64,000 nucleotides of DNA from a virus. Taxonomy: Duplodnaviria; Heunggongvirae; Uroviricota; Caudoviricetes; Crassvirales. The DNA lies in the IMG/VR virus record IMGVR_UViG_3300017605_000245, positions 1 to 64,000 of that record; one strand, 5' to 3'. A program made the translations under genes and the position numbers. Under the pieces are notes generated by a model. The model was not told the DNA's origin and searched no databases. It saw only the letters and a program-made list of their open reading frames with translations. This document shows, in pieces, positions 18,206 to 44,883 of the stretch. The first letter of the stretch is position 1. Each line of letters starts with the position of its first letter.

Positions 18206-18224
18206 TGATTTAACACCTAGAATA

Positions 18225-19997: not shown

Positions 19998-20561
19998 ATG
20001 AAAAAACTATTATCAATTGCATTAATTGTTATCAGTATGGTAACATATGCTCAGACAGAAAAAGAAAGCTATTTCTCATTATCATCTAAGTTTGATGTGA
20101 AGAATGCTATCGTTGGTAGCGAACCAACAAATAATAAATCAGCATTAGATTTGCATTTAAATGCTAATATGGTTAAAAACAATTTTGAATTATCTATGGG
20201 TTATGAAACATTTCATACAATTGGATTTGAGAAATATTCTGTAGATTTTGGATGGCACTTTCCAAGATATATACCAATCTTTAATAAAGAGATTGATATT
20301 ACTATTGTACCATCTATAGGATTTAGTATGATTAATCGATATGATTTAGGTATTAAATCTATTACAGGTGAAACATTAAATAGAATGGGATTTGTAGCAA
20401 TACAAGGAAATCTTTCTTTTAGAGTTCCATTAACAGATACTATATTATTAGATTATACCATTGAAGCACAAGGAAGACCTGATAGAGAATTTCTATATCC
20501 TGAAACTACAAAATCTTCAGTTATATTTAGTAATTTAGTAGGAATACATTATAAATTTTAA
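19998..20561 (+). CDS. Secreted outer-membrane beta-barrel-like protein (OmpX/Lom-like size class)
   Basis: Bacteroidetes-style signal peptide MKKLLSIALIVISMVTYAQ. Alternating hydrophobic beta-strand pattern. C-terminal ...GIHYKF ends in an aromatic residue (the OMP C-terminal signature). 187 aa fits an 8-strand barrel. Confidence 0.5.
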   Translation: MKKLLSIALIVISMVTYAQTEKESYFSLSSKFDVKNAIVGSEPTNNKSALDLHLNANMVKNNFELSMGYETFHTIGFEKYSVDFGWHFPRYIPIFNKEIDITIVPSIGFSMINRYDLGIKSITGETLNRMGFVAIQGNLSFRVPLTDTILLDYTIEAQGRPDREFLYPETTKSSVIFSNLVGIHYKF

Positions 20562-20562
20562 T

Positions 20563-20826
20563 ATGTTTGTAATACATAATGGTCGTTGGGTGAATAATAG
20601 TAGCCCAACAACACCATTAACTGCGATGGAACAACATGCAGTAGCTAGACATATTAAAACTACAATGTCATCACTATTTGGTACATTTGAAGCTACACCA
20701 AATAAGATTAATGCTATTAATCAAATTGTACAATCAGACGAAACTAAATCATTATTAATTAACAGAATTTTAAACTCTACACCTAAAAAGCTAAAAGAAA
20801 TTAAATTGTTTTTAGGTGTTAAATAA
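20563..20826 (+). CDS. Hypothetical protein
   Basis: 87-aa ORF, 2-nt spacing from the upstream gene. Confidence 0.3.
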   Translation: MFVIHNGRWVNNSSPTTPLTAMEQHAVARHIKTTMSSLFGTFEATPNKINAINQIVQSDETKSLLINRILNSTPKKLKEIKLFLGVK

Positions 20827-21208
20827 TAATATTATGAAAAATATAATTGTAATTGTTAAAAAACAAAAAGAATTAGATATTCCTTCTAAAGGTACATTGG
20901 GTGGTTCGGTTCCATTGTTACGAATAGGAAGAATAAATAATCCTAAAATAAAAAGTTAAACATTGAATTTGTAAATAAAAGGTAAAATTAAGACTGAAAG
21001 GTAGCCGAGGTTGTAATCTCCTCATCTAATTTACAAAAAGATACTAAGCCTGAATTGACAGGATGTTAGAGATATTGGGGCAGCACCAATACTTGTTAGA
21101 CTAACAGTAAAGTCGCTAACGGAGTAATCCTAATATTTTCAATGTTTTTAAAACAGTTTTAATACTTTCTGTAAAAAAGTATTATTTTTAACTAATTAAT
21201 CTATAATT

Positions 21209-21463
21209 ATGAGTAATTTACAAAGATTAACAAATAATGCTTTTGGTATAAGAAAGTATTTAGCTAAAAAAGGTTTTGATGTTGGAGGTAAAGGTAGAAA
21301 ACCAAATGAAATATTAATTAAATTCTTAAAAGAACATAATTTAAAATATGAAAAATGGAATTCTAGATATAAAGGTTTCTTTACTGCAGAATTATCAAAT
21401 GCAATAACAGTTTCGGATAATTGGGAACTATTTAAAATTTGGATTAATAATCAAACAAAATAA
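21209..21463 (+). CDS. Hypothetical basic protein
   Basis: 84-aa ORF, K/R-rich. Confidence 0.35.
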   Translation: MSNLQRLTNNAFGIRKYLAKKGFDVGGKGRKPNEILIKFLKEHNLKYEKWNSRYKGFFTAELSNAITVSDNWELFKIWINNQTK

Positions 21464-21469
21464 TAATTT

Positions 21470-21788
21470 GGGCTCGACTGGTTTTGACCTGATACGTGGA
21501 AAATATAATTCAGCACTGAGAGATAACAGTATAAAACTAAGGTGAATTTTATTAAATGGCAAAAATCAAGTTTCAGCTAATATGGCTAAAGTTATGACAT
21601 TAATTAACTCTGACATCATCGCGAATGAGCCAGAAATGTTAATGGCTGCCTAGTTGCCTTTCTTGCATGGTATAATGCAAGTGGTGGAGAATTAAGTCAA
21701 ACACCAATTGAATTTAATTCCTTAAAAGCTGTATAAAATTATATTAAAAGTTTATTGGGATACGGCGGTTCGACTCCGCCCGAGTCCA
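21470..21788 (+). ncRNA. ssrA: tmRNA-like gene (SsrA-like), with candidate tag reading frame 21619-21651 (ANEPEMLMAA-stop)
   Basis: 5' end GGGCUCG-A-CUGGUUUUGAC resembles the tmRNA 5' motif (E. coli GGGGCUG-A-UUCUGGAUUCGAC). 3' end has a canonical T-arm GGCGG-TTCGACT-CCGCC, then CGAGUCC plus discriminator A. These pair with the 5' GGGCUCG, including a G3·U70 wobble (the tRNA-Ala identity element that tmRNAs keep). The internal short frame GCG AAT GAG CCA GAA ATG TTA ATG GCT GCC TAG encodes ANEPEMLMAA (compare E. coli ANDENYALAA). CCA is not encoded. Confidence 0.55.
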
Positions 21789-21815
21789 CTTGTCAATCGT
21801 GTAAAGTTGATTGTA

Positions 21816-21856
21816 AGTCGTTGAGGGTACGACTATAAATAATAACCCTCATTTTA
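21816..21856 (+). terminator. Terminator-like hairpins after the tmRNA-like gene
   Basis: AGTCG-TTGAGGGTA-CGACT and an outer TGAGGG...CCCTCA, followed by TTTTA. Weaker than the other terminators. Confidence 0.35.
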
Positions 21857-21883
21857 CTAACTAAACTAAATTAATTAAATATT

Positions 21884-22210
21884 ATGGAAAACTCAACAGT
21901 ATTACAACAGGCAGGTTATAAAGGTGTAAAGATTACATCTATAATTAATGCAATTAAATCTAAAGAAATCTATGACAATCTAAGATTAGTACAACAAGAT
22001 GAATTTAGAAGAATTGAAAACAGATATAATAAACTTGGTTATTTAACACAACCATATTTTACATATCTTTGGTCACTATATTGGAACTTTGTATTAAATG
22101 ATTTTAGATTTGAAGATAAAACTAAAACATGGTCTATTCCAAGTAAAATTAAAAACTTTAAAAGAGAACATATTGGTATGACAATATTAAAATCACTACA
22201 AAATGAATAA
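21884..22210 (+). CDS. Hypothetical protein
   Basis: 108-aa ORF. Confidence 0.35.
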   Translation: MENSTVLQQAGYKGVKITSIINAIKSKEIYDNLRLVQQDEFRRIENRYNKLGYLTQPYFTYLWSLYWNFVLNDFRFEDKTKTWSIPSKIKNFKREHIGMTILKSLQNE

Positions 22211-22451
22211 AGAAATTAACTTTAAATTCATATATATTATATTGTTGATAATTATATGTGGAATTATTTATGGTGATTATCTCATATATTTATGGAGTAT
22301 TAAAAATAACAGAATGTCTGATTTTATATGTGGAAATTGTTTAGCAATATCTTTAATATTAGGATTTTTGTTAATTGCTACAGATATTCTTGATAATATT
22401 ATTGAAAATACTTATAAATTTCTAACTAAAAAACGAACTATTAGATTTTAA
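22203..22451 (+). CDS. Small 2-TM membrane protein (distant member of the tandem family)
   Basis: 82 aa, two hydrophobic helices, basic C-terminus TKKRTIRF. Confidence 0.35.
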   Translation: MNKEINFKFIYIILLIIICGIIYGDYLIYLWSIKNNRMSDFICGNCLAISLILGFLLIATDILDNIIENTYKFLTKKRTIRF

Positions 22452-22453
22452 TT

Positions 22454-22735
22454 ATGAAAAATACAACTATTAATAAATTAGGGTTAATGTTATTAGCCCT
22501 AATTGGTTTACTATTATCAATCTCGTGTAAAGAAAATATACCTCGAGATAAAACTATATGTATTCCGAGATTTAGTCTTGGTCAAACAGCTTATATGAAA
22601 CCTGATTCATTAAAAGTTATCATTGATGACGTTAATGATAAAATGGATAAAGGTTATTCATATGGTGTTGTATGGTATACTAAAAACAGAGAACCTCAAT
22701 ATGATTCATATGTATATGAATACATGTTTTATTAA
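22454..22735 (+). CDS. Putative lipoprotein
   Basis: Signal peptide with a lipobox-like LLSISC (Cys about 24 residues in). 93 aa. Confidence 0.4.
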   Translation: MKNTTINKLGLMLLALIGLLLSISCKENIPRDKTICIPRFSLGQTAYMKPDSLKVIIDDVNDKMDKGYSYGVVWYTKNREPQYDSYVYEYMFY

Positions 22736-22746
22736 ATTATAATATT

Positions 22747-23004
22747 ATGAAATATACATTTATTGTTATATGGTTGTTAATACAATCTATAGCATGGTCA
22801 ATTTACATTAGTGTAATGCATTCAGCTTATTTTATATGGAATTTTAAACGATTAAATCATAATTTTACATATAGAACATCAATATCAGACCATGAAATAA
22901 ATCATGGATTTGGTGGTTTATCTACACATCCTTCATATTTTCATTATTTATGGAATATTAAAAAAGATACATTTAACTTTAAATTTAGAAAATATGAGAA
23001 TTAA
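22747..23004 (+). CDS. Small 2-TM membrane protein, family member (C-terminal FNFKFRK motif)
   Basis: 85 aa, two TM helices, C-terminus ...FNFKFRKYEN. Confidence 0.35.
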   Translation: MKYTFIVIWLLIQSIAWSIYISVMHSAYFIWNFKRLNHNFTYRTSISDHEINHGFGGLSTHPSYFHYLWNIKKDTFNFKFRKYEN

Positions 23005-23224
23005 AGGTAAAACAATTATTCAGATAATAGCTTTTATACTTAGTATTATAGGTATTTGGTCTGCTATTAATATCTTTAATAATCCAAATGTGGCAGAAGG
23101 ATTAAAAGTATTAGGTGCTTTTATTGTTGCATTTTCTGCAGTATGTCTTATTGGACTAATAATAGTATTTATTAGTAATATTTGGGATGAGACTTATTAT
23201 ATTAATCTTAAATTTAGGAAATAA
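22994..23224 (+). CDS. Small 2-TM membrane protein, tandem paralog (C-terminal INLKFRK)
   Basis: The ORF track gives 22904-23224. The internal start MRIKGKTIIQ at 22994 avoids overlap with the upstream gene. 76 aa, two TM helices, C-terminus WDETYYINLKFRK. Confidence 0.35.
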   Translation: MRIKGKTIIQIIAFILSIIGIWSAINIFNNPNVAEGLKVLGAFIVAFSAVCLIGLIIVFISNIWDETYYINLKFRK

Positions 23225-23457
23225 TGAAAATAACTATTGGAGATATTGTAACATATCTCATAATTTCAGCATGGATTGGTATTACGGGATATGGTGGTTA
23301 TCTTTTAATTATAAGTAAAACTAAACTTACTGATTTTGAATCGTTTTGTGTTGCTGCTATATGTTTCACAGGATTTTTAGCAGTTATATTTGTAGTAGTA
23401 ATCATTCACCAAAATTGGGATAAAAAATTAACAATTAACTTTAAATTACGTAAATAA
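23224..23457 (+). CDS. Small 2-TM membrane protein, tandem paralog (C-terminal INFKLRK)
   Basis: 77 aa, two TM helices, C-terminus WDKKLTINFKLRK. This closely parallels the preceding gene. Confidence 0.35.
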   Translation: MKITIGDIVTYLIISAWIGITGYGGYLLIISKTKLTDFESFCVAAICFTGFLAVIFVVVIIHQNWDKKLTINFKLRK

Positions 23458-23459
23458 AA

Positions 23460-24047
23460 ATGAAAAACATTTTTACAATTGTAGCTGTAGCAAGCATGAT
23501 GTTTGCCTCTACACAATCTTTTGCACAAACATCTAAGGATGTTACAGGAACTGTTAATAATACAGTAAATCAAGTTAGCGGTCAAGCTACAAATATTGTT
23601 GATAAAACATCAAACGGTATTGGTGTATTGCACGATGATGTTAAAGATCTTTTAGGTGTTGCTCATGAAGATCTAAAAGTAATTGCACCAAAGATTGAAT
23701 CTGCTATCACAGAGATTGCTAAAGGTCTTAAAACAGGTGCAGCTAATGTTTGGGAGATATTAGTCAAACAACAATTAGTGTGGTCACTATGTTATCTATT
23801 AATATTTATATTAGCTATTGCATCATGGATTCATTTCTATTACAGATTTAATAAAGGTTCTCGTGAAGTAAACGAAGACGGTGAATGGCGTGCTGCGAAT
23901 ATTGCAATTGCAGCTATTACGTGTATATTATCAATTGCAATATCTATTGCTGCAGTACAAAATCTTGAACCAATGATGACAGGTTTCTTTAACCCAGAAT
24001 TTGGTGCTATGCGTAACATTATTCAATTTGCTACACAGTTTAAATAA
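23460..24047 (+). CDS. Secreted/membrane protein
   Basis: Signal peptide MKNIFTIVAVASMMFASTQSFAQ, plus two later TM helices. Confidence 0.4.
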   Translation: MKNIFTIVAVASMMFASTQSFAQTSKDVTGTVNNTVNQVSGQATNIVDKTSNGIGVLHDDVKDLLGVAHEDLKVIAPKIESAITEIAKGLKTGAANVWEILVKQQLVWSLCYLLIFILAIASWIHFYYRFNKGSREVNEDGEWRAANIAIAAITCILSIAISIAAVQNLEPMMTGFFNPEFGAMRNIIQFATQFK

Positions 24048-24769
24048 TGAGTAATAAGCTTGAAAGAGAGTTAATCAAACTCCAACAGAAGGAAGAAAGT
24101 AATTCTGTTAAAATTGAAGATCAAGCTCAATTACTATTAGCTGCACCAAAAGAAGATATTGCGATTCTTGAACGTGTAAATATGGATTATCAAATTCATA
24201 AAAATCGTAACATTGTTGCAAAACGAGATAAAATTAACGCTTTTAAGACATTATTTAATAGTCAAGTATATACTGGTGCTCAATTAAGAGATATGTGTGA
24301 TCATTATGATTTAAAATGCTTAAAAGTATCTGAATACAAAGGTAAATTAGATGCTCAACTTGCATCTAAATTAAAAGTTTTTGAAACGGAGAAAAATGTT
24401 ACATTAAATTCTCGTAATCTATTCATACTCGCAGCAGCTGAATCATTTAATAAAAATAATGATAATTCAAATTTAAATTGTATTGTATTATACAGTGAAC
24501 ACGAAAAAGATTATAAAGGAAAATTAGAGGTTGAAGATGTGTTAACAGTAATACATTCTTGGGGTGATAATTTTAAATCTATACGTAAATATAGATTTTT
24601 AATGAATGCTGCAATATTAACAGCAATCTTATTCTTTGGAGTATCTCTTATTGGTCATTCAATGATAGCAACAACAATCTTTGCAGTAATATCTGCATTA
24701 TGTGTCTTATTAGGATGTTTAACAGAAACAACAGAAAGTAAATTATGGAACGTTTTAGAAACAGAATAG
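24047..24769 (+). CDS. Membrane-anchored hypothetical protein
   Basis: 240 aa with a soluble N-terminus and two C-terminal TM helices. Confidence 0.35.
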   Translation: MSNKLERELIKLQQKEESNSVKIEDQAQLLLAAPKEDIAILERVNMDYQIHKNRNIVAKRDKINAFKTLFNSQVYTGAQLRDMCDHYDLKCLKVSEYKGKLDAQLASKLKVFETEKNVTLNSRNLFILAAAESFNKNNDNSNLNCIVLYSEHEKDYKGKLEVEDVLTVIHSWGDNFKSIRKYRFLMNAAILTAILFFGVSLIGHSMIATTIFAVISALCVLLGCLTETTESKLWNVLETE

Positions 24770-25035
24770 CGCTCTTCGCAATTGCGTGGATTATATTACT
24801 ACCAATTGCCGTTAAATGGTATGGTAATTTAGATTACAAAAGAGTATATACTGATGAATATAAAAATTATTTATCAGATACTGAAAAAATTCAAAGATTT
24901 GGACCTTCAAATATTGACAACTATAATGCATATTATAGTCAAACTAAAACAATTGAAGAAACTAGAACAAATATTCCATTTGTATGGAATTATAAAGTTT
25001 TAGAAAAAACTCCAATGAAAGTATTTACAGAATAA
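24745..25035 (+). CDS. Hypothetical protein with N-terminal TM helix
   Basis: 96-aa ORF. Confidence 0.3.
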   Translation: MERFRNRIALFAIAWIILLPIAVKWYGNLDYKRVYTDEYKNYLSDTEKIQRFGPSNIDNYNAYYSQTKTIEETRTNIPFVWNYKVLEKTPMKVFTE

Positions 25036-25043
25036 ATAATGGT

Positions 25044-25114
25044 AGGTGTATATTGTAATGGTAGCATGTGGTGGTCACGTCACTTCGGTACAGGTTCGAT
25101 TCCTGTTATACCTT
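25044..25114 (+). tRNA. tRNA-like gene (anticodon tentatively CAC, Val; D and anticodon stems imperfect)
   Basis: Canonical T-arm ACAGG-TTCGATT-CCTGT. 7-bp acceptor stem AGGTGTA / TATACCT with one G·U pair. D-loop contains GG. Putative anticodon loop gU-CAC-gt. The first pair of both the D and anticodon stems is a T·T mismatch. 70 nt plus discriminator. Confidence 0.5.
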
Positions 25115-25156
25115 CAAATCATTTTTCATAATAGTGATTTTTAGTTAGTTAGTAGA

Positions 25157-25190
25157 AAGTGGGTGAAGATAGTAGCCCACTTTTTTTTTT
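25157..25190 (+). terminator. Rho-independent terminator
   Basis: AGTGGG-TGAAGATAGTA-CCCACT followed by a T10 run. Confidence 0.7.
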
Positions 25191-25241
25191 AAAATCAATT
25201 ATGAATATAAAATTAGTAAATAATAAATTAAAATAATTATT

Positions 25242-26207
25242 ATGACAAAAGAAGAATTATTAGTTAAGGCTAAAAAAGATTATCCTATTGGTACAGCATT
25301 TAAATCTGTATATGGTTATCCTGGAATAGTAACAAGTGAACCTATTCTTGTAGCAGCTCAAGATCATATTTATGTAGAATGTAGAGATGGTGTAAAAAGA
25401 CTTATTTATCAAAATGGTGATTGGGCTATAATAAATCCAGGACCTAGACGTTCTGCAATGTTAAATATAAATACAGAATCACAACGATTTGTGCTACCTG
25501 AGAAATGGTGTGTTAAAGGTTTAGATAATATTGAAATTGTAAATTATTTTAAACAAAATAGTAAAAATAATTTTATATATTCACAAAATCAACAATATTT
25601 TCATTCTGAAAATTTAATAAGAGGAGCGATGTGGATTCTTTCAGTAAGACCTCATCATTCACATACTGAAATAACATTTGCAGAATTTAAAAAACATGTA
25701 CTAAAAATAAAAGATAAACCTATTATGGAAACAAAAGTTAAAGTATTAAAACATGAGATTACTGAAGTTCAAAATGAAGATGGTAGTATTCTTAGATTAG
25801 GTGATGAAGTTATTCATAATAATCTAAAACAAGCTCGTAAACATTTTATAGAACCTTCTAAGATTACGTCATTTATGAAAGATGATGATAAAATCTTAGC
25901 TACTACTACTTATCGTGATGGTAAATTAGGTATTAATATTAATAAATTAGAACTTCATATTGATTCGTTCGTATTACCTATCAACTGGTATGTAAAAATT
26001 ACTGCAGAAAATAGACAGATTGTTAGAGTTTGGTTTGAAGATGTTAAAAATTACGGTCGTCAGTATGTGTTTAGTAATGGTGCCTATTATGGTGAAAAAG
26101 TTCTTACTAATAATTTAAAAGCAGGTCAAGCCAATGATAATATCTCTAATATGCTAGGTGACTTAATTACATTTGAAGAATTTCAAAAATACGTTTTAAA
26201 TCAATAA
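25242..26207 (+). CDS. Hypothetical protein with internal repeat (FVLPxxW(C/Y)VK...)
   Basis: 321 aa. Two copies of a ~25-aa segment: FVLPEKWCVKGLDNIEIVNYF and FVLPINWYVKITAENRQIVRVWF. Confidence 0.4.
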   Translation: MTKEELLVKAKKDYPIGTAFKSVYGYPGIVTSEPILVAAQDHIYVECRDGVKRLIYQNGDWAIINPGPRRSAMLNINTESQRFVLPEKWCVKGLDNIEIVNYFKQNSKNNFIYSQNQQYFHSENLIRGAMWILSVRPHHSHTEITFAEFKKHVLKIKDKPIMETKVKVLKHEITEVQNEDGSILRLGDEVIHNNLKQARKHFIEPSKITSFMKDDDKILATTTYRDGKLGININKLELHIDSFVLPINWYVKITAENRQIVRVWFEDVKNYGRQYVFSNGAYYGEKVLTNNLKAGQANDNISNMLGDLITFEEFQKYVLNQ

Positions 26208-26446
26208 ATTATGAAAAGTTATTGGAATTTAGTATGTGTTACATACTTTCAAATTGGTGTAAACATTATTGGTTTACCTGAAATTATTACCCACAATCAG
26301 TATGAACCTGATAAGCAATATCAAAACGAATCTGCTTATCATAATTAAATAAATTATGAAACAATATGAAAAACACTATCTTGACATTCTTGATGAAGAT
26401 GGTTGGATGGATTGCAGTGGAACTGCATCTTAATTAAATTAAAACT

Positions 26447-26647
26447 ATGTACAAACAACTCTCACAAATACGTGAAACAGGACAAGGTTCTGTAACGTAT
26501 AATTTTGCAGATGGGACTAAACAAGTCGCCACAATTAACTCACAAGTCTTTTACGATGAAAAAGGTCGTAAAAAGGATTTGAATGTAGTAGTAAGTATCT
26601 TTCAATCTACGGCTCATGATTTGAAAGCTATCTCATTTGAATTTTAA
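26447..26647 (+). CDS. Hypothetical protein
   Basis: 66-aa ORF. Confidence 0.3.
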   Translation: MYKQLSQIRETGQGSVTYNFADGTKQVATINSQVFYDEKGRKKDLNVVVSIFQSTAHDLKAISFEF

Positions 26648-28042: not shown

Positions 28043-29905
28043 ATGAAGAAAAGTAAAGTATTATATGATATTGAAGTATTTAAGAACTTCTTTTGTGTAG
28101 GTCTAAAAGATTATGTTACTAAAAAGATTACCTTCTATGAAATATCTGAAGAAAGAAATGATTTAGATTTAATCTATAAATGGTTTAAAACCTATGACGG
28201 ATTTCTAATATCATTTAATGGAGTTTGGTACGACAATATGATTATTAAGTATTTACTAGAGAACTATAGTAAATATCAACATCTTGATTGGATTAATATT
28301 ACATTAGATTTAAAATATTTCTCAGATAAAGTAATTAATGATGAATTTGATGACCAAGATATTAAACGTATTAAATGGACTAAAACAAATTGGATCGATA
28401 TAGATTTATTCTGCTATTGGTCTAAGATGTTACGTATGTCTAAAAAGATTAGCTTAAAATCATTAGGAATTCAATTAGCATACCCTGTAGTTCAAGAACT
28501 TCCTTACAAACCTGATACAGTGTTGACTAAAGAAGATTTACCTAAGCTTCGGTATTATAACTATACCCACGATTTAGGTATTCTTGAATTACTATTGGAT
28601 AACATGGAAGGTGATGTTAAATTACGTGCAAATATTAATCAACAATATAATCTTGATTGCTGGTCATGGGATGCACCTAAAATAGCATCAGAATCTCTTT
28701 TAAGCGACTATTGCAGTAAGACACGTAAAAAGACCTTTGAAGTTCGTAAAGAACGATTTGAGAAGCCTTTTATACCTTTAGTAGATTGTCTTAAAGGATT
28801 TGACCCAGGATTTAAATTACCTATCTTTCAAAAGTTATGGGTTGACATCTTAAATTCTAATAATAGTTTTAGTAAAGAGATTCTTGTTACACACGGAAAT
28901 ACTAATATAAGATTGACATATGGAATTGGTGGATTACATTCTATTAATGAGAATGAAGTCTATGAAACTACAGAAGATGAACAAGTCGTCACATCTGATG
29001 TAGCTTCACTATATCCTAATCTTATTATTAACTATTTATGTATTAGATTTCCAGAGGTATTAGAACGCTACAAAGAGGTTAAATTTGAAAGACTTGAAGC
29101 TAAAAAGAATAAGGATAAAGCTAAAGACACATTTCTTAAACTTATTCTTAACAGTACTTCAGGTTTATTAGACAATAGTCATTCGTGGTTGTATTATCCT
29201 GAAGGTGCAATGAGATTAAGATTGATTGGTCAACTAATATTGACTAAATGTATCGAACAATGTGTAATTAACAATTGGAAAGTTGTCTCAGCTAATACAG
29301 ATGGTATTGAAGTTATTGTTCCAAAACACATGTTGCGACAATATCAAGATATATTAGATATGACTTGTAGAAAATTTGGTTTAGATTTAGAACATGAGTT
29401 TTATAGTAAAATTATTTATAAAAATGTAAATAATTATACAGCTATTACTAATGATGGTAAATTGAAACAAAAAGGTTTATTTATACATAATCCAATATTA
29501 GGTAATTCAACAGATGAATTAGTGATTGCTAAAGCTTTAGAAGCTTACTACACTAAAGACATTCAACCTAGAGAATTTATATCTAATCCTGATAAGTATA
29601 ATCTACATATCTTTGACTTTTGTAAATCAAATAAGATTGGTAAAGATTTTAAAGTAATCTGGAATAATCAGGAACAACAACAGCTTAATCGCTACTACTT
29701 TAGTAAAAATGCTCCATTTCTCTTTAAACAGAAGCATGGTACAGGAACTTTACAACATGTTAACGTAGGTCAAGGAGTGCAACTATATAATGAACACAAA
29801 GACTTTTCTTGGGATAAACGAGAGATTAATTATGCTTATTATATTAGTGCTATACAAAAGATTATTGACGAAATTGCAAATTATAATCAACTAACTTTAT
29901 TTTAA
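28043..29905 (+). CDS. Family B DNA polymerase (compact, 620 aa) with 3'-5' exonuclease domain
   Basis: Exo I LYDIEVF (D-x-E). Exo II SFNGVWYDNMII. Pol motif A DVASLYPNLII (DxxSLYPS). Motif B KLILNSTSGLL (KxxxNSxYG). Motif C ANTDGIEVIV (DTD). Confidence 0.7.
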   Translation: MKKSKVLYDIEVFKNFFCVGLKDYVTKKITFYEISEERNDLDLIYKWFKTYDGFLISFNGVWYDNMIIKYLLENYSKYQHLDWINITLDLKYFSDKVINDEFDDQDIKRIKWTKTNWIDIDLFCYWSKMLRMSKKISLKSLGIQLAYPVVQELPYKPDTVLTKEDLPKLRYYNYTHDLGILELLLDNMEGDVKLRANINQQYNLDCWSWDAPKIASESLLSDYCSKTRKKTFEVRKERFEKPFIPLVDCLKGFDPGFKLPIFQKLWVDILNSNNSFSKEILVTHGNTNIRLTYGIGGLHSINENEVYETTEDEQVVTSDVASLYPNLIINYLCIRFPEVLERYKEVKFERLEAKKNKDKAKDTFLKLILNSTSGLLDNSHSWLYYPEGAMRLRLIGQLILTKCIEQCVINNWKVVSANTDGIEVIVPKHMLRQYQDILDMTCRKFGLDLEHEFYSKIIYKNVNNYTAITNDGKLKQKGLFIHNPILGNSTDELVIAKALEAYYTKDIQPREFISNPDKYNLHIFDFCKSNKIGKDFKVIWNNQEQQQLNRYYFSKNAPFLFKQKHGTGTLQHVNVGQGVQLYNEHKDFSWDKREINYAYYISAIQKIIDEIANYNQLTLF

Positions 29906-29906: not shown

Positions 29907-30113
29907 ATGGAGAGAAATAATTCTGAGATTAGTGTTTATATTGATTTAATAATGGATTATTATAATATATCTAATCCGATTAAAATTGCTGAATTGATTG
30001 AAGAAGAATTTGATATTTTTATATCGATTCACCAAATATCTGATTATTTAGATATTAATAAAAAAGAAGATTATGAGAAGGAATCTTTAAAAATGTATAA
30101 CCAATATTATTAA
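29907..30113 (+). CDS. Hypothetical acidic protein
   Basis: 68-aa ORF. Confidence 0.3.
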   Translation: MERNNSEISVYIDLIMDYYNISNPIKIAELIEEEFDIFISIHQISDYLDINKKEDYEKESLKMYNQYY

Positions 30114-30124: not shown

Positions 30125-31687
30125 ATGAATCCATTATTATATGTAGATTTTTATAAACCTCATCATCAGGATATGTACCCTGAAAATATGACAAAACTTT
30201 ATTCTAATTTTACACCACGTAAAAGTAGATTAAAAGGAATTGACAATGTTGTTGTATTCGGTATTCAACATTTCGTATTAGAATATCTTATTAAAAAGTT
30301 TAATAATGATTTTTTTGGAAAACCTAAATTTAATACAAATCATTATGGTACTATTTTACCAGGAGTTATTGAAGAATATCGTCGTCATGTGTCAATTGAT
30401 ACAAAACGAATTGAAGCATTATGGGATTTAGGTTATTTACCTATTGAAATTAAAGCTTTAGATGAAGGTACTTTATGTCCTATTGGTGTACCAATGATGA
30501 CTATTACAAATACTCATCCTGATTTTGCATGGTTAGTTAACTATTTAGAAACTTTAATTAGTTGTCAATTATGGCAACCAGTTACTTCAGCAACAATTGC
30601 TTATGAATATAAAAAGATTCTTAATAAATATGCTATTGAAACTACAGGTTCAACTGAAGGAGTACAATGGCAAGCTCATGATTTTTCAATGCGTGGTATG
30701 TCTTCTGTTGAGTCTGCCATTCTTTCTGGTATGGGTCATCTTACATCTTTTACAGGAACTGATGTTATACCTGCAATTTATGCACTTGAAACATCTTATC
30801 AAGCGACTGGATTAATTGGTGCTTCTGTACCTGCTACTGAGCATTCTGTTATGTGTATGGGTACTAAAGAAAGTGAAATTGAAACTTTTCAAAGACTTTT
30901 AAATACATATCCAACAGGAATTCTATCTGTAGTATCTGATACTTGGGATTTATGGAAAGTTTGTACAGAATATTTACCAGCTTTAAAAGATCAAATCTTA
31001 GCTAGAGATGGTAAATTAGTTATTCGTCCTGACTCAGGAGATCCAGTAGATATTATTTGTGGTAATGGTGGTTTCTATACAAATGAAATAGGTTTAAACT
31101 TTGATGTAAAATTCCAAGAACAATCTAATGAAAGTAAAGGAGTAATTGAATTACTTTGGAATGCTTTCGGAGGAACTGTTAATGAACAAGGTTATAAAGT
31201 ATTAGATTCACATATTGGAGCTATTTATGGTGATAGTATTACTATGGACAGAGCTATTCAGATCTGTGAGAGACTTAAAGCTAAAGGTTTTGCAAGTACT
31301 AATATTGTATTAGGTATAGGAAGTTATACTTATCAATACAATACTCGTGATACATTTGGATTTGCAATGAAAGCAACGTACGGGGAAACATTAGAATTTG
31401 ATAATGATTACAGTGTTAATGGAGATAGTATTTACAAGTCTGTAGGGAGAGAAATATTTAAAGATCCAATTACAGATGATGGCACTAAGAAATCTAAAAA
31501 AGGTTTATTATGTGTTGTCAACGATACATTAGTTGCGGGATTAAAAGAAGGGGAAATTGCGGTACTTGATCAGTGTAGTAGTTATCAAGAATCACTTGGT
31601 TTACTTACAACAGTATTTAAAGACGGTAAACTTATTAAAGAAACTACTTTGGATGAGATTAGAGAACGTTTAAATTCTACATTATAA
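30125..31687 (+). CDS. Nicotinamide phosphoribosyltransferase-like (NAMPT/NadV family; alternatively a NARP1 Namat-type enzyme)
   Basis: LLYVDFYKPHHQDMYPENMTKLYSNFTPRKSR matches the NAMPT N-terminal block (TDSYK.THY.QYP......Y...R). HDFSMRGMSS and IRPDSGDPVD match the NAMPT GFGxRG and (V/I)RPDSG(D/N)P blocks. 520 aa. Confidence 0.8.
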   Translation: MNPLLYVDFYKPHHQDMYPENMTKLYSNFTPRKSRLKGIDNVVVFGIQHFVLEYLIKKFNNDFFGKPKFNTNHYGTILPGVIEEYRRHVSIDTKRIEALWDLGYLPIEIKALDEGTLCPIGVPMMTITNTHPDFAWLVNYLETLISCQLWQPVTSATIAYEYKKILNKYAIETTGSTEGVQWQAHDFSMRGMSSVESAILSGMGHLTSFTGTDVIPAIYALETSYQATGLIGASVPATEHSVMCMGTKESEIETFQRLLNTYPTGILSVVSDTWDLWKVCTEYLPALKDQILARDGKLVIRPDSGDPVDIICGNGGFYTNEIGLNFDVKFQEQSNESKGVIELLWNAFGGTVNEQGYKVLDSHIGAIYGDSITMDRAIQICERLKAKGFASTNIVLGIGSYTYQYNTRDTFGFAMKATYGETLEFDNDYSVNGDSIYKSVGREIFKDPITDDGTKKSKKGLLCVVNDTLVAGLKEGEIAVLDQCSSYQESLGLLTTVFKDGKLIKETTLDEIRERLNSTL

Positions 31688-32637
31688 TGAAAGTATTAAA
31701 TTTAACAAATAACGAAACCTCAGATATTAAATTTGAGGTTTCTAACTTTCCAGATGGTCAACAACAGGTTAAAATATTAGATTTTAATTATGTATTAAAA
31801 GGTAATTATTCACCAGAATATAAGATTGAATGTTCTAAAATATTTAATAATCCGATTCAAATTAAAGCAAGATTAAATAACTTTCAAGATTTAGAGTTAC
31901 TTATTTGTGTAACTAAATCTTTAAGAGGATTAGGTGTTAAAGAAATTCATTTATATGCACCATATTTCTTAGGAAGTAGAAGTGATAGAAAATTTGAAAC
32001 AGGTTCTAATAATTATCTTAAAGATGTTATATGTCCTATTATAAATTCTCTTAACTTTGAATCTGTAATAGTAATTGACCCTCATAGTGATGTACTTGAA
32101 GCTTGTTTAAACAACTTTAAAAAGTTTAGTAATTTAGATTTAGTAAAATGGATAATTAGTAATAATCCTCAAAATACTAAACCTTTATCTGATTTTATTC
32201 TAATATCACCTGATGCAGGTGCAAATAAGAAAATCTTTAAAGTTGCTGAACAAATTGGTTATACTGGAGATATTATTACTTGTAGTAAATCTAGAGATAT
32301 TGATGGTAAATTAACTAAAACTGAAGTTCCTATTAAAGCTCCTCATTTTGGTAAAGATATGATTATTATAGATGATATTTGTGATGGAGGGGCTACTTTT
32401 CTAAATATAGCTAAAGAATTTCATAAAAAATATGAAGAAGCTTATGATTGGAAAGGAATTAAACCTAAAATCTATTTAATAGTAACTCATGGAATCTTTT
32501 CTAAAGGTTTTAAAGAACTCAATCAATATTTTGATGGTATATACTGTACTAACAGTTATAGTGATTTAAATAGTCCTGAAATGTCTTTAAAATATGATAA
32601 CACATTATATAAAGTTAAACAATTAAATGTATTTTAA
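31687..32637 (+). CDS. Ribose-phosphate pyrophosphokinase (Prs) family protein (PRPP synthetase or NARP1 Adps-type)
   Basis: PRPP-binding loop MIIIDDICDGGATF (Prs VDDMIDTGGT). ILISPDAGANKK (Prs VVSPDxGGV). 316 aa. Start overlaps the NAMPT-like stop (TAATG). Confidence 0.75.
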   Translation: MKVLNLTNNETSDIKFEVSNFPDGQQQVKILDFNYVLKGNYSPEYKIECSKIFNNPIQIKARLNNFQDLELLICVTKSLRGLGVKEIHLYAPYFLGSRSDRKFETGSNNYLKDVICPIINSLNFESVIVIDPHSDVLEACLNNFKKFSNLDLVKWIISNNPQNTKPLSDFILISPDAGANKKIFKVAEQIGYTGDIITCSKSRDIDGKLTKTEVPIKAPHFGKDMIIIDDICDGGATFLNIAKEFHKKYEEAYDWKGIKPKIYLIVTHGIFSKGFKELNQYFDGIYCTNSYSDLNSPEMSLKYDNTLYKVKQLNVF

Positions 32638-32829
32638 ATGAAAAACAAAGTAGAATGCCCGTGTTGTTTAGGTACGGGTCAGCATATGGAGGCTAAGGAA
32701 ACTAAAGGTTTTAAGTATGAAGACTGTACACTATGTAATAAGACAGGTGTTGTAGAACAACAAATTGCAGATGACTATGTCTTTGCAAATTCAGGTGAAG
32801 AGAATTTTGAATCAAACGAGGATTGGTAA
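32638..32829 (+). CDS. Small DnaJ-type zinc-finger protein
   Basis: 63 aa with CPCCLGTGQH and CTLCNKTGVV (CxxCxGxG repeats). Acidic C-terminus. Confidence 0.4.
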   Translation: MKNKVECPCCLGTGQHMEAKETKGFKYEDCTLCNKTGVVEQQIADDYVFANSGEENFESNEDW

Positions 32830-32923
32830 TGAAACATGAAGTAAGAGTTATTCCTAAAGAGGAAATTTTAGCTGACAGATGTAACCAATATCAATTTATT
32901 AACTTTTTTGAAGAAGAATAATA

Positions 32924-33531: not shown

Positions 33532-34056
33532 ATGGAAGAAGAAATATGGAAAGATGTTGTTGGATTTGAAAATCTTTATCAAATTAGTAATTTAGGACAA
33601 GTTAAAAGTTTAGAACGAACTATTAAAAATAGAAAAATTAAAAGTAAAATAATAAAAACATTTCTTATTAATAATAAGTATTTAAAATGTACTTTGCATA
33701 AAGAAAATAAATCTTTTAAATTTTTTATACATAGATTAGTTTGTTTACACTTTTTACCAATTATTGAAAATAAGAATCAAGTCAATCATATTGATAAAAA
33801 TTCTTTAAATAATAATTTGAATAACTTAGAATGGGTATCTCGTATTGAAAACATGTGTCATGCATACAAAACAATAAAAACATCTTCAAAATATACAGGT
33901 GTTTATTGGAAGAATAGGGAACAAAAATGGTTTTCTGAAATAAGTATTAATAATAAAAATATTTATTTAGGTAGATTTGACAATGAAGAAGATGCATACC
34001 AAGCTCGAGTAAATTACGAAATTGAGAATAATATTAATAATAAATATTTATGGTAA
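33532..34056 (+). CDS. HNH homing endonuclease (NUMOD4-like N-terminus + HNH + AP2-like C-terminus)
   Basis: WKDVVGFENLYQISNLGQVKSL (NUMOD4-like). HIDKNSLNNNLNNLEW (HNH H-N-N). YTGVYWKNREQKWFSEISINNKNIYLGRFDNEEDA (AP2/ERF-like DNA-binding domain). Confidence 0.6.
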   Translation: MEEEIWKDVVGFENLYQISNLGQVKSLERTIKNRKIKSKIIKTFLINNKYLKCTLHKENKSFKFFIHRLVCLHFLPIIENKNQVNHIDKNSLNNNLNNLEWVSRIENMCHAYKTIKTSSKYTGVYWKNREQKWFSEISINNKNIYLGRFDNEEDAYQARVNYEIENNINNKYLW

Positions 34057-38442: not shown

Positions 38443-38516
38443 AGTTAAGTAACTAAAGTGGTAAAGTCCCTCTTCGAAAGTTGGGGAGTCTGGGGGTTCG
38501 AATCCCCCCTTAACTG
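38443..38516 (+). tRNA. tRNA-like gene (anticodon ambiguous; GAA, Phe, if a standard 7-nt loop)
   Basis: Perfect 7-bp acceptor AGTTAAG / CTTAACT. Canonical T-arm GGGGG-TTCGAAT-CCCCC. D-loop contains GG. The anticodon stem pairs poorly under standard numbering; a 4-bp stem with a 9-nt loop is the alternative fold. Confidence 0.5.
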
Positions 38517-38809
38517 CAAATTAATAACTAAAATTGTATTATAATGAAAATAGCAACAATAGATTTAAGTAAATATGAAAAAGGAATTAATCCTTTCATT
38601 GAATTAGTTTGGAGAGAAGCTATTAATGAGGAAATAACTGAAGTATTTGAAGTACTTTCTAAAATTAAATAAAATATGAAAAGTAAAGAAAAGATTATAA
38701 ACAAGATTTTGGATGAAATTAAAAGTTATCCTATAATAGATTTTATTGCTTCACCTATTACAGAAGAAGTAAGAATAGACAATCACATTTATTATGTGCA
38801 ACATTAACT

Positions 38810-41958: not shown

Positions 41959-42657
41959 ATGAAAAAAATTGGAATCGTAGCTTGGGGAACAAGTGTAAAC
42001 ACTTTCGGAGTAACAACAATGTATGCAGACTTTTTTAGTAAATTTGGTGTAGTTGAAATGATTATGCCTAATGAGACAGAAGCTCGTGATTTAGACTTAT
42101 TAGTATTACCTGGTGGTCCAGATGTAGATACAAGAAGATATCTTGAGAAAGGTGATAAACTATCTTATTGGACACAAAAACCATGTCCTTATAAAGAAAG
42201 ATTTGATGCTGAATTATTACCTTTATATATGGAAAAAAATACTCCTATATTTGGTATCTGTAGAGGTCATCAGACACTATACGTAGAACTTGGAGGTAAA
42301 TTGTTTCAAGACTTATGGGAAGAAGGTTACGACCATCCAACAAATGGTGAGAATCGTAAAACTAAAGTACACTTTGTTAAAACAAACGCAAGAGCTGCGC
42401 AAGGTTTAGCCTTACAATTACCTGCTAAATTTGAAGTGAATTCTATTCACCACCAAGCGGTAGACCACAGACATATGCCTCAGATAGGAACGGTATTAGC
42501 TTGTCATACAAGTAAAGCAGGTAATATTGATGGTATCATTGAAGCAATGACATACTTTCCTGATTATCCTGCACATACAGTACAGTGGCATCCAGAAGAA
42601 ATTAGAGATGATTTCTCAATAGCTTTGATTGAACAATTATTAACTTTAAATGACTAA
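41959..42657 (+). CDS. Class I glutamine amidotransferase-like / peptidase C26 (gamma-glutamyl hydrolase, PuuD-like)
   Basis: LVLPGGPD. Nucleophile elbow GICRGHQ. Later HHQ and W...HPE blocks. Confidence 0.65.
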   Translation: MKKIGIVAWGTSVNTFGVTTMYADFFSKFGVVEMIMPNETEARDLDLLVLPGGPDVDTRRYLEKGDKLSYWTQKPCPYKERFDAELLPLYMEKNTPIFGICRGHQTLYVELGGKLFQDLWEEGYDHPTNGENRKTKVHFVKTNARAAQGLALQLPAKFEVNSIHHQAVDHRHMPQIGTVLACHTSKAGNIDGIIEAMTYFPDYPAHTVQWHPEEIRDDFSIALIEQLLTLND

Positions 42658-42659
42658 TT

Positions 42660-42887: not shown

Positions 42888-42889
42888 AT

Positions 42890-43804: not shown

Positions 43805-43825
43805 GTTTAAAAGAATTTAAATAAA

Positions 43826-44878: not shown

Positions 44879-44883
44879 ACAAA

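What the first reader, a model, noticed from the sequence alone, without database searches (positions are those of the whole stretch)
30125..32829. NAMPT-like + Prs-like gene pair (candidate NAD+ reconstitution / anti-defense module) followed by a DnaJ-type zinc-finger mini-protein
A nicotinamide phosphoribosyltransferase-family protein is immediately followed, with a TAATG overlap, by a PRPP-synthetase-family protein. Phage pairs of exactly this composition were long annotated as NadV plus Prs salvage. To my recollection they have more recently been shown in some phages to act as NARP1 (Adps/Namat), which rebuilds NAD+ from ADP-ribose and nicotinamide to defeat NAD-depleting defence systems. 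No NMNAT gene is visible in the window, which would favour the NARP1-type logic over classical NadV plus NMNAT salvage. The adjacent 63-aa CxxCxGxG protein is unexplained.
Basis: partly seen in the sequence, partly recalled or inferred. Interest (0 to 1): 0.6.

Follow-up and report, generated by a model that had tools for sequence, protein, structure and literature searches.

The report
Phage NAD+-rebuilding gene pair (NARP1)
A crAss-like phage carries an intact copy of the known two-enzyme NARP1 pathway, which rebuilds NAD+ after bacterial defences destroy it; the small zinc-finger gene next to it is an unrelated neighbour, so the finding is real but ordinary.

Summary
All three ORFs exist exactly as described: 30125-31687, 31687-32637 (TAATG overlap) and 32638-32829. 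The first-stage reading holds up.

The 520-aa protein is a Namat, not a housekeeping NadV/Nampt.
- Its best solved relative is SPbetaL1 Namat (9W5X, E 6e-156; human NAMPT 1e-65).
- It carries the Namat-only adenine clamp: R35 and GSYTYQYNTRD.
- It separates 300/300 from KVP40-type (NARP2) Nampts.

The 316-aa protein is an Adps, not a Prs.
- It falls below every NCBIfam Prs cut-off.
- It scores 175 bits on an Adps HMM and 71 on a cellular-Prs HMM.
- It groups with verified Adps in 200/200 replicates.
- It keeps the ICP1 Adps catalytic and ADPR/ATP-site residues (K201, F21, R98, F103, CDGGATF).
- It lacks the Prs C-terminal helices.

No Nmnat, NadR/PnuC, Macro or RyR domain was found in the 64 kb.

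The host genome is a crAss-like phage. The pair sits in a variable slot between the DNA polymerase and the zinc-ribbon gene. Relatives without NARP1 keep the zinc-ribbon gene in the same place, so it is a backbone gene, not a third component.

NARP1 in crAss-like phages is already catalogued. This is a new member of a known kind, with inverted gene order and no enzymology.

The parts
30125..31687 (+). namat: nicotinamide ADP-ribose transferase (Nampt-family), 520 aa
   Evidence: NF006629 567 bits and phrog_448 7e-190. Best PDB relative is SPbetaL1 Namat 9W5X/9W5W, E 6e-156, against human NAMPT 1e-65. 19 of 21 NAD+-contact/catalytic residues are identical; the other two (A362->S371, F392->Y401) are substitutions seen in other Namats. 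Adenine clamp: R35, Y401, Y405, T407, R408, D409, within GSYTYQYNTRD at 399-409. Separated from NARP2-type Nampts in 300/300 NJ bootstraps.
31687..32637 (+). adps: ADP-ribose pyrophosphokinase (PRPS-like), 316 aa
   Evidence: Below all NCBIfam Prs cut-offs (best 78 against 113). phrog_619 4e-61. Adps HMM built without its own lineage 175 bits; cellular Prs HMM 71 bits. Adps-like clade against 8 cellular Prs 200/200, nested among verified Adps. ICP1 Adps residues conserved: F21, R98, F103, H133, D176, K201, D229, D230, PP loop C232-D-G-G-A-T237, F238; no C-terminal alpha11-alpha12. PRPS fold by Foldseek, E 2e-13.
31685..31689 (+). TAATG stop/start overlap coupling namat to adps
   Evidence: Read directly from the sequence.
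32638..32829 (+). 63-aa single-zinc-centre ribbon with helix and acidic tail; neighbouring backbone gene, not part of NARP1
   Evidence: Invariant C7, C10, C30, C33 across 28 family members. AlphaFold pLDDT 82.7: beta-ribbon 4-40, helix 41-52, disordered tail. Best structural and profile matches are weak: DnaJA2 zinc finger and anti-TRAP. Homologues sit in the same syntenic position in L024 and L026, which lack Namat/Adps.
29907..30113 (+). 68-aa conserved ORF forming the upstream border of the variable slot
   Evidence: Homologues lie upstream of the slot in L007, L008 and L024. No family match.
28043..29905 (+). DNA polymerase, the upstream backbone anchor of the slot
   Evidence: phrog_1252 DNA polymerase 6e-111. 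49-69% identical homologues precede the slot in L008, L024 and L026.

Best explanation
The two overlapping genes are a minimal, two-gene NARP1 anti-defence cassette in a crAss-like phage. When a host NADase effector (SIR2, TIR or SEFIR type) cleaves NAD+ into ADP-ribose and nicotinamide, the 316-aa Adps uses ATP to pyrophosphorylate the terminal ribose of ADP-ribose, giving ADPR-PP. K201 is the catalytic lysine; F21', R98 and F103 hold the ADPR adenine; the CDGGATF loop holds the ATP phosphates. The 520-aa Namat then swaps the pyrophosphate for nicotinamide and makes NAD+ directly, selecting ADPR-PP over PRPP through its adenine clamp (R35 plus Y401/Y405 of GSYTYQYNTRD). No NMN intermediate and no Nmnat are needed. 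Shown here: intact genes, family membership by sequence, diagnostic residues, clade placement, and genomic context. Inferred: the two enzymatic reactions and the anti-defence phenotype, by homology to SPbetaL1, Bas63, FADO, ICP1 and Gary. The cassette occupies a variable slot between the DNA polymerase/68-aa gene and a conserved zinc-ribbon gene. The zinc-ribbon protein belongs to the replication-module backbone and is not a pathway component.
For: Namat. Top PDB hit is SPbetaL1 Namat 9W5X/9W5W, E 6e-156. The SCH motif GSYTYQYNTRD equals the published Namat consensus GSX-phi-X-phi-X-phi-TRD, whereas the NARP2-type Nampts of VH7D, RB43 and a Klebsiella phage read GGGLLQ..(D/T)RD. The R40-equivalent R35 is present. 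Identity is 55-61% to the SPbetaL1, FADO, GH15 and ctKR88 Namats (48-52% to Gary, pinkbiff and GuuelaD) and 31-32% to NARP2 Nampts, with a 300/300 split. Adps. It is below the Prs cut-offs. It scores 175 against 71 bits on Adps and Prs HMMs. NJ gives 200/200 for the Adps-like clade, with the window lineage nested among experimentally verified Adps from Gary, SPbetaL1 and FADO. All ICP1 Adps acceptor, donor and catalytic residues are conserved, and the alpha11-alpha12 module is missing. Pairing. Osterman et al. found a Namat homologue next to 97% of Adps-clade genes, and bacterial prs genes only very rarely next to one. The ORFs here overlap by TAATG. The sibling contig L006 carries Namat-Adps followed by a Macro protein 38% identical (E 2e-31) to the verified Adpp of phage Gary, that is a NARP1-AP operon in the same slot. 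No Nmnat, Macro, RyR, PnuC or NadR domains were found in 83 window ORFs.
Against: No enzyme or infection data exist for this lineage. The Adps subclade is only about 30-37% identical to verified Adps by tblastn. It carries a roughly 20-residue insertion (about aa 34-54, pLDDT 60-69) of unknown effect. One ATP-cap position differs (ICP1 F223 -> N240), although that position also varies among verified Adps. The trees are neighbour-joining on a small taxon sample. Gene order is inverted relative to all characterised operons. The window shows 64 kb of a genome likely near 100 kb, so an Nmnat elsewhere cannot be excluded. Namat enzymes retain NMN-forming activity in vitro.
Confidence: 0.85

Rival explanations
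1. Classical salvage, as long annotated. The Prs-like enzyme makes PRPP, the Nampt-like enzyme makes NMN, and a host (NadR/PncC route) or unseen phage Nmnat finishes NAD+. This would boost NAD+ supply regardless of defence.
For: Pfam, NCBIfam and PHROG names say nicotinamide/nicotinate phosphoribosyltransferase and ribose-phosphate pyrophosphokinase. Namat can still make NMN from PRPP in vitro. About a third of the presumed genome is unseen.
Against: The Prs-like protein fails every Prs equivalog or subfamily cut-off. It lacks the Prs N-terminal helix and the C-terminal alpha11-alpha12 module, and has the Adps-type donor loop with F238 and F103. SPbetaL1 Adps gave no measurable product in the PRPP-synthetase control assay but made ADPR-PP from ADPR and ATP. 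The Nampt-like protein has the full adenine clamp that NARP2 Nampts lack. No Nmnat was found in 64 kb, and Osterman et al. found no phage with both pathways.
Confidence: 0.06
2. A functionally shifted NARP1 variant. The divergent Adps subclade (N-domain insertion, inverted operon) accepts a different or broader acceptor, such as another NDP-ribose or a modified ADPR, so the pair rebuilds NAD+ from a different breakdown product.
For: The window lineage is a separate, 200/200-supported Adps subclade with a lineage-specific insertion. Its relatives recruit different accessory enzymes into the operon: a Macro Adpp in L006 and a phrog_1238 protein in L007/L008. This suggests selection on substrate input.
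Against: All residues that contact the ADPR adenine, distal ribose and ATP phosphates in ICP1 Adps are conserved. The partner Namat keeps the adenine clamp unchanged. The accessory enzymes known so far convert other molecules into plain ADPR rather than changing what Adps accepts.
Confidence: 0.07
3. The 63-aa zinc-ribbon protein is a third, lineage-specific component of the module, for example a regulator or chaperone of Adps/Namat.
For: Its ATG follows the adps stop codon with no spacer. It is found downstream of adps in L006, L007 and L008.
Against: Homologues occupy the same position relative to the polymerase and the 201-aa gene in L024 and L026, which have no Namat or Adps. In L006 and L007 two other genes lie between adps and it. 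It is absent from the other NARP1 loci examined: SPbetaL1, FADO, Gary, pinkbiff, GH15, GuuelaD, ctKR88 and Lbo-JY46. The whole + strand block is tightly packed, so zero spacing is not distinctive.
Confidence: 0.04

Closest known systems
NARP1 of Bacillus phage SPbetaL1, Escherichia phage Bas63 and Bacillus phage FADO (Adps + Namat; Osterman et al., bioRxiv 10.1101/2024.02.11.579819; Namat structures 9W5X/9W5W, PMC12774641)
   Same: Two adjacent, translationally coupled genes of the PRPS and Nampt families. Identical catalytic and NAD+-contact residues in Namat, including the SCH motif and the SCL arginine. Catalytic lysine conserved in Adps. No Nmnat.
   Different: Gene order is namat then adps, rather than adps then namat. 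Adps is 316 aa against 272-277 aa, with an N-domain insertion, and belongs to a separate subclade. Namat has two surface insertions (about aa 317-331 and 421-436) relative to SPbetaL1. No experimental data.
Vibrio phage ICP1 Adps (structures and mutagenesis, PMC13586617)
   Same: F18/R87/F92 adenine contacts, H121, D161, K185, D212-D213-I214, the PP loop and F221 are all conserved (window F21, R98, F103, H133, D176, K201, D229-D230-I231, C232-T237, F238). The PRPS alpha11-alpha12 helices are absent.
   Different: PP loop reads CDGGAT against CDGAAS. F223 is N240. I194/V195/C197 are L209/T210/T212. Extra helical insertion near residue 40.
NARP1-AP of Vibrio phage Gary (Adps-Adpp-Namat; bioRxiv 10.64898/2026.01.28.702374)
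   Same: Same core enzymes. The nearest sibling contig (L006) has a Gary-like Macro phosphatase directly after adps.
   Different: The window has no Macro/Adpp homologue (Pfam and tblastn). It should therefore not counter aRES-type ADPR-1''-phosphate-forming defence.
NARP2 of Vibrio phage KVP40 (Nampt + Nmnat)
   Same: Nampt-family enzyme; the end product is NAD+.
   Different: The window protein is only 31-32% identical to KVP40-type Nampts. It has the adenine clamp they lack, is paired with Adps, and no Nmnat is seen.
crAss-like phages cr85_1, cr111_1 and cr126_1, listed as NARP1 carriers in Osterman et al. supplementary tables
   Same: Crassvirales-type genomes carrying Adps plus Adps-associated Namat. 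The cr85_1 Adps N-terminus (MQVLNLIRPEKSSIKYKVIQFPDGE...) resembles the window's (MKVLNLTNNETSDIKFEVSNFPDGQ...).
   Different: Only about 28% identity by tblastn to cr85_1 Adps. The window phage has no close relative in the phage collection and its contig comes from a JGI metagenome.
Anti-TRAP (RtpA, 3LCZ/2BX9) and the DnaJ cysteine-rich domain, for the 63-aa protein only
   Same: CxxCxGxG-type knuckles forming a zinc ribbon. Anti-TRAP is likewise a stand-alone protein of about 53 aa. These are the best profile and fold matches.
   Different: The matches are weak (E 0.003 by profile, 0.04 by Foldseek). DnaJ has four repeats and two zinc centres; here there are two repeats and one centre, plus a helix and an acidic tail. 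No functional evidence.

Membership tests
Namat (NARP1 step 2) | Nampt-like catalytic core: NAM/NMN-contact residues D13', Y15', F189, R192, D215, A242, catalytic His, R306, D308 (SPbetaL1 numbering) | tested here: met
   Window D8, Y10, F187, R190, D213, A237, H240, R301, D303.
Namat (NARP1 step 2) | [quoted passage not shown] | tested here: met
   G399-SYTYQYNTRD-409, with Y401 and Y405 aromatic. The NARP2 Nampts compared read GGGLLQQLDRD or GGGLLQEVTRD.
Namat (NARP1 step 2) | SCL loop supplying an Arg/Lys/Tyr stacking residue (SPbetaL1 R40) | tested here: met
   PRKSR with R35 aligned to R40.
Namat (NARP1 step 2) | Falls in the Adps-associated clade, separate from KVP40-type Nampt | tested here: met
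   NJ split 300/300. 55-61% identity to the SPbetaL1, FADO, GH15 and ctKR88 Namats (48-52% to Gary, pinkbiff and GuuelaD) against 31-32% to NARP2 Nampts. Small taxon sample.
Namat (NARP1 step 2) | Prefers ADPR-PP over PRPP and forms NAD+ directly | not testable with these tools
   Needs a mixed-substrate enzyme assay.
Adps (NARP1 step 1) | PRPS-like two-domain fold, but not a bona fide Prs | tested here: met
   Foldseek to E. coli and human PRPS, E 2e-13. TIGR01251 78 bits against a 113 cut-off, and all Prs equivalogs far below cut-off.
Adps (NARP1 step 1) | Catalytic lysine (ICP1 K185, SPbetaL1 K162) | tested here: met
   K201 in CSKSRD aligns to both.
Adps (NARP1 step 1) | ADPR acceptor contacts F18', R87, F92, H121, D161, D212, D213 | tested here: met
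   F21, R98, F103, H133, D176, D229, D230. At the F92 position the five cellular Prs in the alignment have R/A/H/S/P.
Adps (NARP1 step 1) | Remodelled PP loop / donor site (C215-S220, F221) conserved across Adps | tested here: met
   C232-D-G-G-A-T237-F238. The five cellular Prs in the alignment have I/V-D/S-T/S-G/A-G-T-L/I. F223 is N240, a position that also varies among other Adps.
Adps (NARP1 step 1) | Loss of the PRPS C-terminal alpha11-alpha12 module | tested here: met
   The protein ends at ...KQLNVF, aligned to the strand that precedes the Prs helices. The AlphaFold model shows only a 4-residue helix and a short strand after residue 290.
Adps (NARP1 step 1) | Placement in the phage Adps clade, and adjacency to a Namat gene | tested here: met
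   200/200 NJ support against 8 cellular Prs, nested among verified Adps. Adps HMM 175 bits against Prs HMM 71. Overlaps namat by 1 nt.
Adps (NARP1 step 1) | Converts ADPR + ATP to ADPR-PP and does not make PRPP | not testable with these tools
   Needs an LC-MS assay.
NARP2 (Nampt + Nmnat) | Nmnat gene in the same genome and a Nampt of the KVP40 clade | tested here: not met
   No CTP_transf_like/Nmnat Pfam hit in 83 window ORFs. The Nampt-family protein is outside the KVP40 clade. Caveat: only 64 kb of the genome is visible.
NARP1-AP (NARP1 + Adpp) | Macro-domain ADPR-1''-phosphate phosphatase within two genes of the operon | tested here: not met
   No Macro hit in the window. tblastn with Gary Adpp and the L006 Macro protein finds nothing in the window. 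It is present in sibling L006.
NARP3 (PnuC + NadR) | PnuC-like transporter plus NadR-like bifunctional enzyme | tested here: not met
   Neither domain is among the Pfam hits of the window ORFs. Definition from PMC13464706.
DnaJ cysteine-rich domain (63-aa protein) | Four CxxCxGxG repeats forming two zinc centres; Pfam PF00684 at gathering score | tested here: not met
   Only two CxxC knuckles (C7/C10 and C30/C33) are present. PF00684 scores 14.8 bits against a 32.7 cut-off. The fold resemblance is weak: DnaJA2 TM 0.53, E 0.04.

The most novel reading that the evidence does not exclude
This crAss-like lineage carries a distinct NARP1 subtype: inverted namat-adps order and a separate Adps subclade with an N-domain insertion. 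It sits in a hypervariable slot that recruits different input-widening accessory enzymes: the known Macro Adpp in L006, and an uncharacterised phrog_1238/HAD-like protein in L007 and L008. If the insertion or those accessories change which NAD+ breakdown products can be recycled, this would be a new branch of the NAD+ arms race. The window itself would be the stripped-down form.
Probability: 0.1. Interest if true: 0.5.

Novelty: new member of a known kind. Interest (0 to 1): 0.25.

Why it matters
This phage most likely can override NAD+-depleting defences (SIR2-HerA/Nezha, type I Thoeris, DSR1/2, SEFIR), which is useful for reading host-range and defence pressure on uncultured crAss-like phages. 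It also gives a worked example of published residue-level rules separating Namat from Nampt and Adps from Prs in raw metagenomic sequence, where database names still say NadV and Prs. It does not open a new question: the pathway, its structures and its presence in crAss-like phages are already published.

Tried and rejected
1. Megablast of 24 kb around the locus against 50,697 phage records found only a 231-bp match, to Leptolyngbya phage Lbo-JY46, so no close reference genome is available.
2. Look-ups of three window proteins, meant to extend beyond the window and screen the rest of the contig for Nmnat, returned 'not on record'.
3. The word-indexed homologue search with the 63-aa protein found only one near-identical protein. 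The exhaustive phmmer search was needed to find the family.
4. The promoter/terminator scan gave counts no higher than shuffles and no terminator, so transcription-unit boundaries are undetermined.
5. Paper searches combining crAss terms with NAMPT or NARP1 found nothing relevant. The link to crAss-like phages came from Osterman's supplementary tables instead.
6. The ICP1 isolate first fetched (L012) has a truncated 211-aa Adps annotation and was dropped. L027 (280 aa) was used.
7. Pfam found nothing for most neighbours.
8. I considered the zinc-ribbon protein as a pathway member and rejected it on synteny.
9. I considered NARP3 and rejected it, because no PnuC or NadR is present.
10. Technical note: the minus-strand ORF references in alignment A1, and the single minus-strand ORF in A2 (60968-63988), were offset by one codon (start codon dropped, stop kept). 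This does not affect the domain scans.
Full report
**Observation.** The first junction reads TTATAATGAAAG, so the stop of gene 1 and the start of gene 2 share one base (TAATG). The stop of gene 2 is followed at once by the ATG of the 63-aa ORF. Gene 1 matches Pfam NAPRTase (3e-40) plus NAMPT_N, NCBIfam NF006629 (567 bits, cut-off 405) and phrog_448 (7e-190). Gene 2 matches Prs models only weakly: TIGR01251 scores 78 bits against a cut-off of 113, and all Prs equivalogs are far below cut-off. It does match phrog_619 at 4e-61.

**What is known.**
- Osterman et al. (bioRxiv 10.1101/2024.02.11.579819) showed that phage 'Prs + Nampt' operons are NARP1. Adps pyrophosphorylates ADP-ribose to ADPR-PP, and Namat joins ADPR-PP to nicotinamide to give NAD+. 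This defeats SIR2-HerA, type I Thoeris, DSR1/2 and SEFIR.
- A separate Nampt clade (KVP40) works with Nmnat as NARP2. No phage was found with both pathways.
- PMC13586617 gives ICP1 Adps structures and a residue-level rule: K185; F18'/R87/F92; the PP loop C215-S220 with F221; and loss of PRPS alpha11-alpha12.
- Extended forms add a Macro phosphatase Adpp (NARP1-AP) or a RyR-domain glycosidase. NARP3 is PnuC + NadR.

**Gene 1 is a Namat.**
- Its best solved relatives are 9W5X/9W5W (E 6e-156), which the depositors' paper identifies as SPbetaL1 Namat. Human NAMPT scores 1e-65.
- I aligned it with verified Namats (SPbetaL1, FADO, Gary), other Adps-linked homologues, and three Nampts from phages without an adjacent Adps gene (KVP40-like VH7D, RB43, a Klebsiella phage). 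Of the 21 SPbetaL1 NAD+-contact/catalytic positions, 19 are identical in the window protein. The other two are A362 to S371 and F392 to Y401, both seen in other Namats.
- The clamp is complete: R35 (= R40), then G399-S-Y-T-Y-Q-Y-N-T-R-D409. The NARP2-type proteins read GGGLLQQLDRD or GGGLLQEVTRD and differ at S190, A362, S391, F392 and Y396.
- A Kimura-distance NJ tree separates the NARP2-type proteins in 300/300 replicates. Identity is 55-61% to the SPbetaL1, FADO, GH15 and ctKR88 Namats and 48-52% to Gary, pinkbiff and GuuelaD, against 31-32% to NARP2 Nampts.

**Gene 2 is an Adps.**
- By tblastn it is 55% identical to the 'PrsA' of Leptolyngbya phage Lbo-JY46 and about 30-37% identical to phage 'Prs' proteins of ICP1, Felixounavirus and Thalassavirus.
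- I collected eight cellular Prs (E. coli, B. subtilis, Sphingomonas, Rhodococcus, Nostoc, Azospirillum, Rhizobium, Subdoligranulum) and verified or operon-linked Adps.
- NJ with BLOSUM62 distances puts all phage Adps-like proteins in one clade in 200/200 replicates. The window lineage is monophyletic (200/200) and nested among the verified Adps of Gary, SPbetaL1 and FADO.
- An HMM built from seven Adps that excludes the window lineage scores the window protein at 175 bits; cellular Prs score 53-106 on it. A cellular-Prs HMM scores the window protein at 71 bits, the same range as verified Adps (50-110).
- Mapped on ICP1 Adps, the window protein has F21, R98, F103, H133, D176, K201, D229, D230, I231, the PP loop C232-D-G-G-A-T237 and F238. 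Cellular Prs differ at the F92, I194, C215, G217 and F221 positions.
- The protein ends before the Prs alpha11-alpha12 helices and lacks the Prs N-terminal helix.
- An AlphaFold model (pLDDT 79) has the PRPS fold (Foldseek E 2e-13) and no C-terminal helical module. It shows a lineage-specific helical insertion at about aa 34-54 with lower confidence.

**Context.**
- The window is a crAss-like phage: Pfam Crass_capsid 6e-172, CrAss_Ring_3_4 8e-62, crAss001_48. Its contig is a 76,575-bp JGI record, and it has no close relative among 50,697 phage records.
- Eighty-three window ORFs were scanned with Pfam. None matches Nmnat/CTP_transf_like, NadR, PnuC, Macro, RyR or Nudix.
- The Adps has thousands of metagenomic relatives, with 60-75% identity on contigs of about 100 kb.
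- In three such contigs the order is polymerase, 68-aa gene, Namat, (optional small gene), Adps, (0-2 genes), zinc-ribbon gene, 200-aa gene, then DnaB and AAA_24. The namat-then-adps order is therefore a lineage trait.
- It is the reverse of SPbetaL1, FADO, ctKR88, Gary, Felixounavirus, GH15, GuuelaD and ICP1.
- Sibling L006 has a 152-aa Macro protein right after adps. It is 38% identical (E 2e-31) to the verified Adpp of phage Gary and matches phrog_335 'phosphatase' at 6.5e-54, so L006 carries NARP1-AP. The window has no homologue of it. It therefore carries the minimal pathway and is predicted to be blind to aRES-type ADPR-1''-phosphate products.

**The 63-aa protein.**
- An exhaustive phmmer search finds 34 representatives, of which about 30 are 45-68 aa and four are longer proteins matching only through the CxxC motif.
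- Across 28 aligned members C7, C10, C30 and C33 are invariant. The consensus is CPxCLGxG...CxLCxGxG followed by an acidic tail.
- The AlphaFold model (pLDDT 82.7) is a beta-ribbon (4-40), a helix (41-52) and a disordered tail.
- The best matches are weak and all DnaJ-CR-like: anti-TRAP at E 0.003 and DnaJ CR at 0.02 by profile; DnaJA2 zinc finger at TM 0.53, E 0.04 and anti-TRAP by Foldseek. Pfam DnaJ_CXXCXGXG scores 14.8 bits against a cut-off of 32.7.
- Synteny is decisive. In L024 (a 102-kb contig) the order is polymerase, 68-aa gene, Metallophos, zinc ribbon, 200-aa gene ... DnaB, AAA_24, with no Namat or Adps. In L026 the zinc-ribbon gene follows the polymerase directly.
- The protein is thus a backbone gene of the replication module, and NARP1 is a cassette dropped into the variable slot upstream of it. 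Its function remains unknown. My best guess is a small zinc-dependent protein-binding factor of the replication/early module, by analogy to anti-TRAP; this is inference only.

**Mechanism and confidence.** I put 0.85 on the pair being a working NARP1 that makes ADPR-PP and then NAD+ without an NMN intermediate. The genes, residues, clades and context are shown. The chemistry and phenotype are inferred from homologues that share only about 30-37% (Adps) and 48-61% (Namat) identity. The rivals are classical PRPP/NMN salvage (0.06), a substrate-shifted variant (0.07), and a three-component module that includes the zinc ribbon (0.04).

**Novelty.** Osterman's supplementary tables already list the crAss-like phages cr85_1, cr111_1 and cr126_1, and ctKR88, as NARP1 carriers. 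This is a new member of a known kind. The modestly new points are the inverted order, the distinct Adps subclade with an insertion, the slot architecture, and the uneven accessory content among siblings.

Noticed in passing
window 483-16787 (- strand block) and whole window: The window is a crAss-like (Crassvirales-type) phage. Pfam gives Crass_capsid 6e-172, CrAss_Ring_3_4 8e-62 (ORF 483-1229) and crAss001_48 2e-16. GC is about 29%. Strand blocks switch near 17 kb and 60.5 kb, in step with the sign of the GC skew.
   Followed up: partly
L006 5583-6041 (sibling contig, JGI 3300020045): A 152-aa Macro-domain protein lies directly after adps. It is 38% identical (E 2e-31) to the experimentally verified Adpp of Vibrio phage Gary, so the closest relative carries NARP1-AP while the window lacks it.
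   Followed up: yes
L008 5620-6000 and L007 6912-7319: Homologous 126/135-aa proteins (49.6% identical) sit inside or next to the NARP1 operon, between namat and adps in L008 and after adps in L007. They match phrog_1238 ('phosphoheptose isomerase', 1e-24) and give only faint HAD-hydrolase Pfam signals. They may be an uncharacterised NARP1 accessory enzyme.
   Followed up: partly
L001 (Lbo-JY46) 2817-7026; L007 4039-5745: Namat and Adps histories disagree. The Adps of the window, L006-L008 and Lbo-JY46 form one clade. The Namats of L007 and Lbo-JY46 form a different, more divergent subclade (300/300) than those of the window and L008. Lbo-JY46 also has two paralogous 247/252-aa genes of unknown function between namat and adps.
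   Followed up: partly
window 41959-49352: A run of amidoligase-type genes: two Peptidase_C26/GATase proteins, an ATP-grasp, a phiEco32-like COOH-NH2 ligase, a GATase_6/7 protein (641 aa) and an Amidoligase_2 protein (570 aa). GGACT and PP-binding domains also occur among the ORFs of 36997-63988. A similar set (SNO GATase, GGACT, ATP-grasp) follows adps in Lbo-JY46.
   Followed up: partly
window 57109-57603; L024 4510-5016: The 165-aa Metallophos gene of the window is 71% identical to the gene that fills the polymerase/zinc-ribbon slot in L024, where NARP1 is absent. The same gene therefore occupies different genome positions in related phages.
   Followed up: partly
window 33532-34056: An HNH homing endonuclease (NUMOD4 + HNH_3 + AP2) lies two genes downstream of the zinc-ribbon gene. 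It is absent at that position in L006, L007 and L024, consistent with a mobile insertion.
   Followed up: partly
window 32828-32920: A further 30-aa ORF (MKHEVRVIPKEEILADRCNQYQFINFFEEE) starts in a second TAATG overlap with the zinc-ribbon gene and ends just before the 201-aa gene. It is too short for the ORF list and was not examined further.
   Followed up: no
window 25044-25115 and 38443-38517: Two tRNA genes on the + strand: tRNA-Val(CAC) and tRNA-Ser(CGA).
   Followed up: no
window 17237-26644 (+ strand ORFs): Pfam hits among the ORFs of alignment A1 include a Cpn60/TCP-1 chaperonin (1.5e-42), PhoH (1.9e-38) and an SPFH/Band_7 protein (5.9e-16). The exact ORFs were not assigned.
   Followed up: no
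window 52336-54261 and 58698-59387: Nucleotide-metabolism genes: a class II (B12-dependent) ribonucleotide reductase-like protein and ThyX (Thy1, 1.7e-33).
   Followed up: no
L012 (ICP1 isolate 2019_Mat_B) 2114-2749 vs L027 (2017_DRC_55) 2372-3214: In one ICP1 isolate the Adps gene is annotated as only 211 aa and the Namat as 439 aa. In another isolate they are 280 aa and 488 aa. This could be a truncation or frameshift of NARP1 in that isolate, or an annotation artefact.
   Followed up: no
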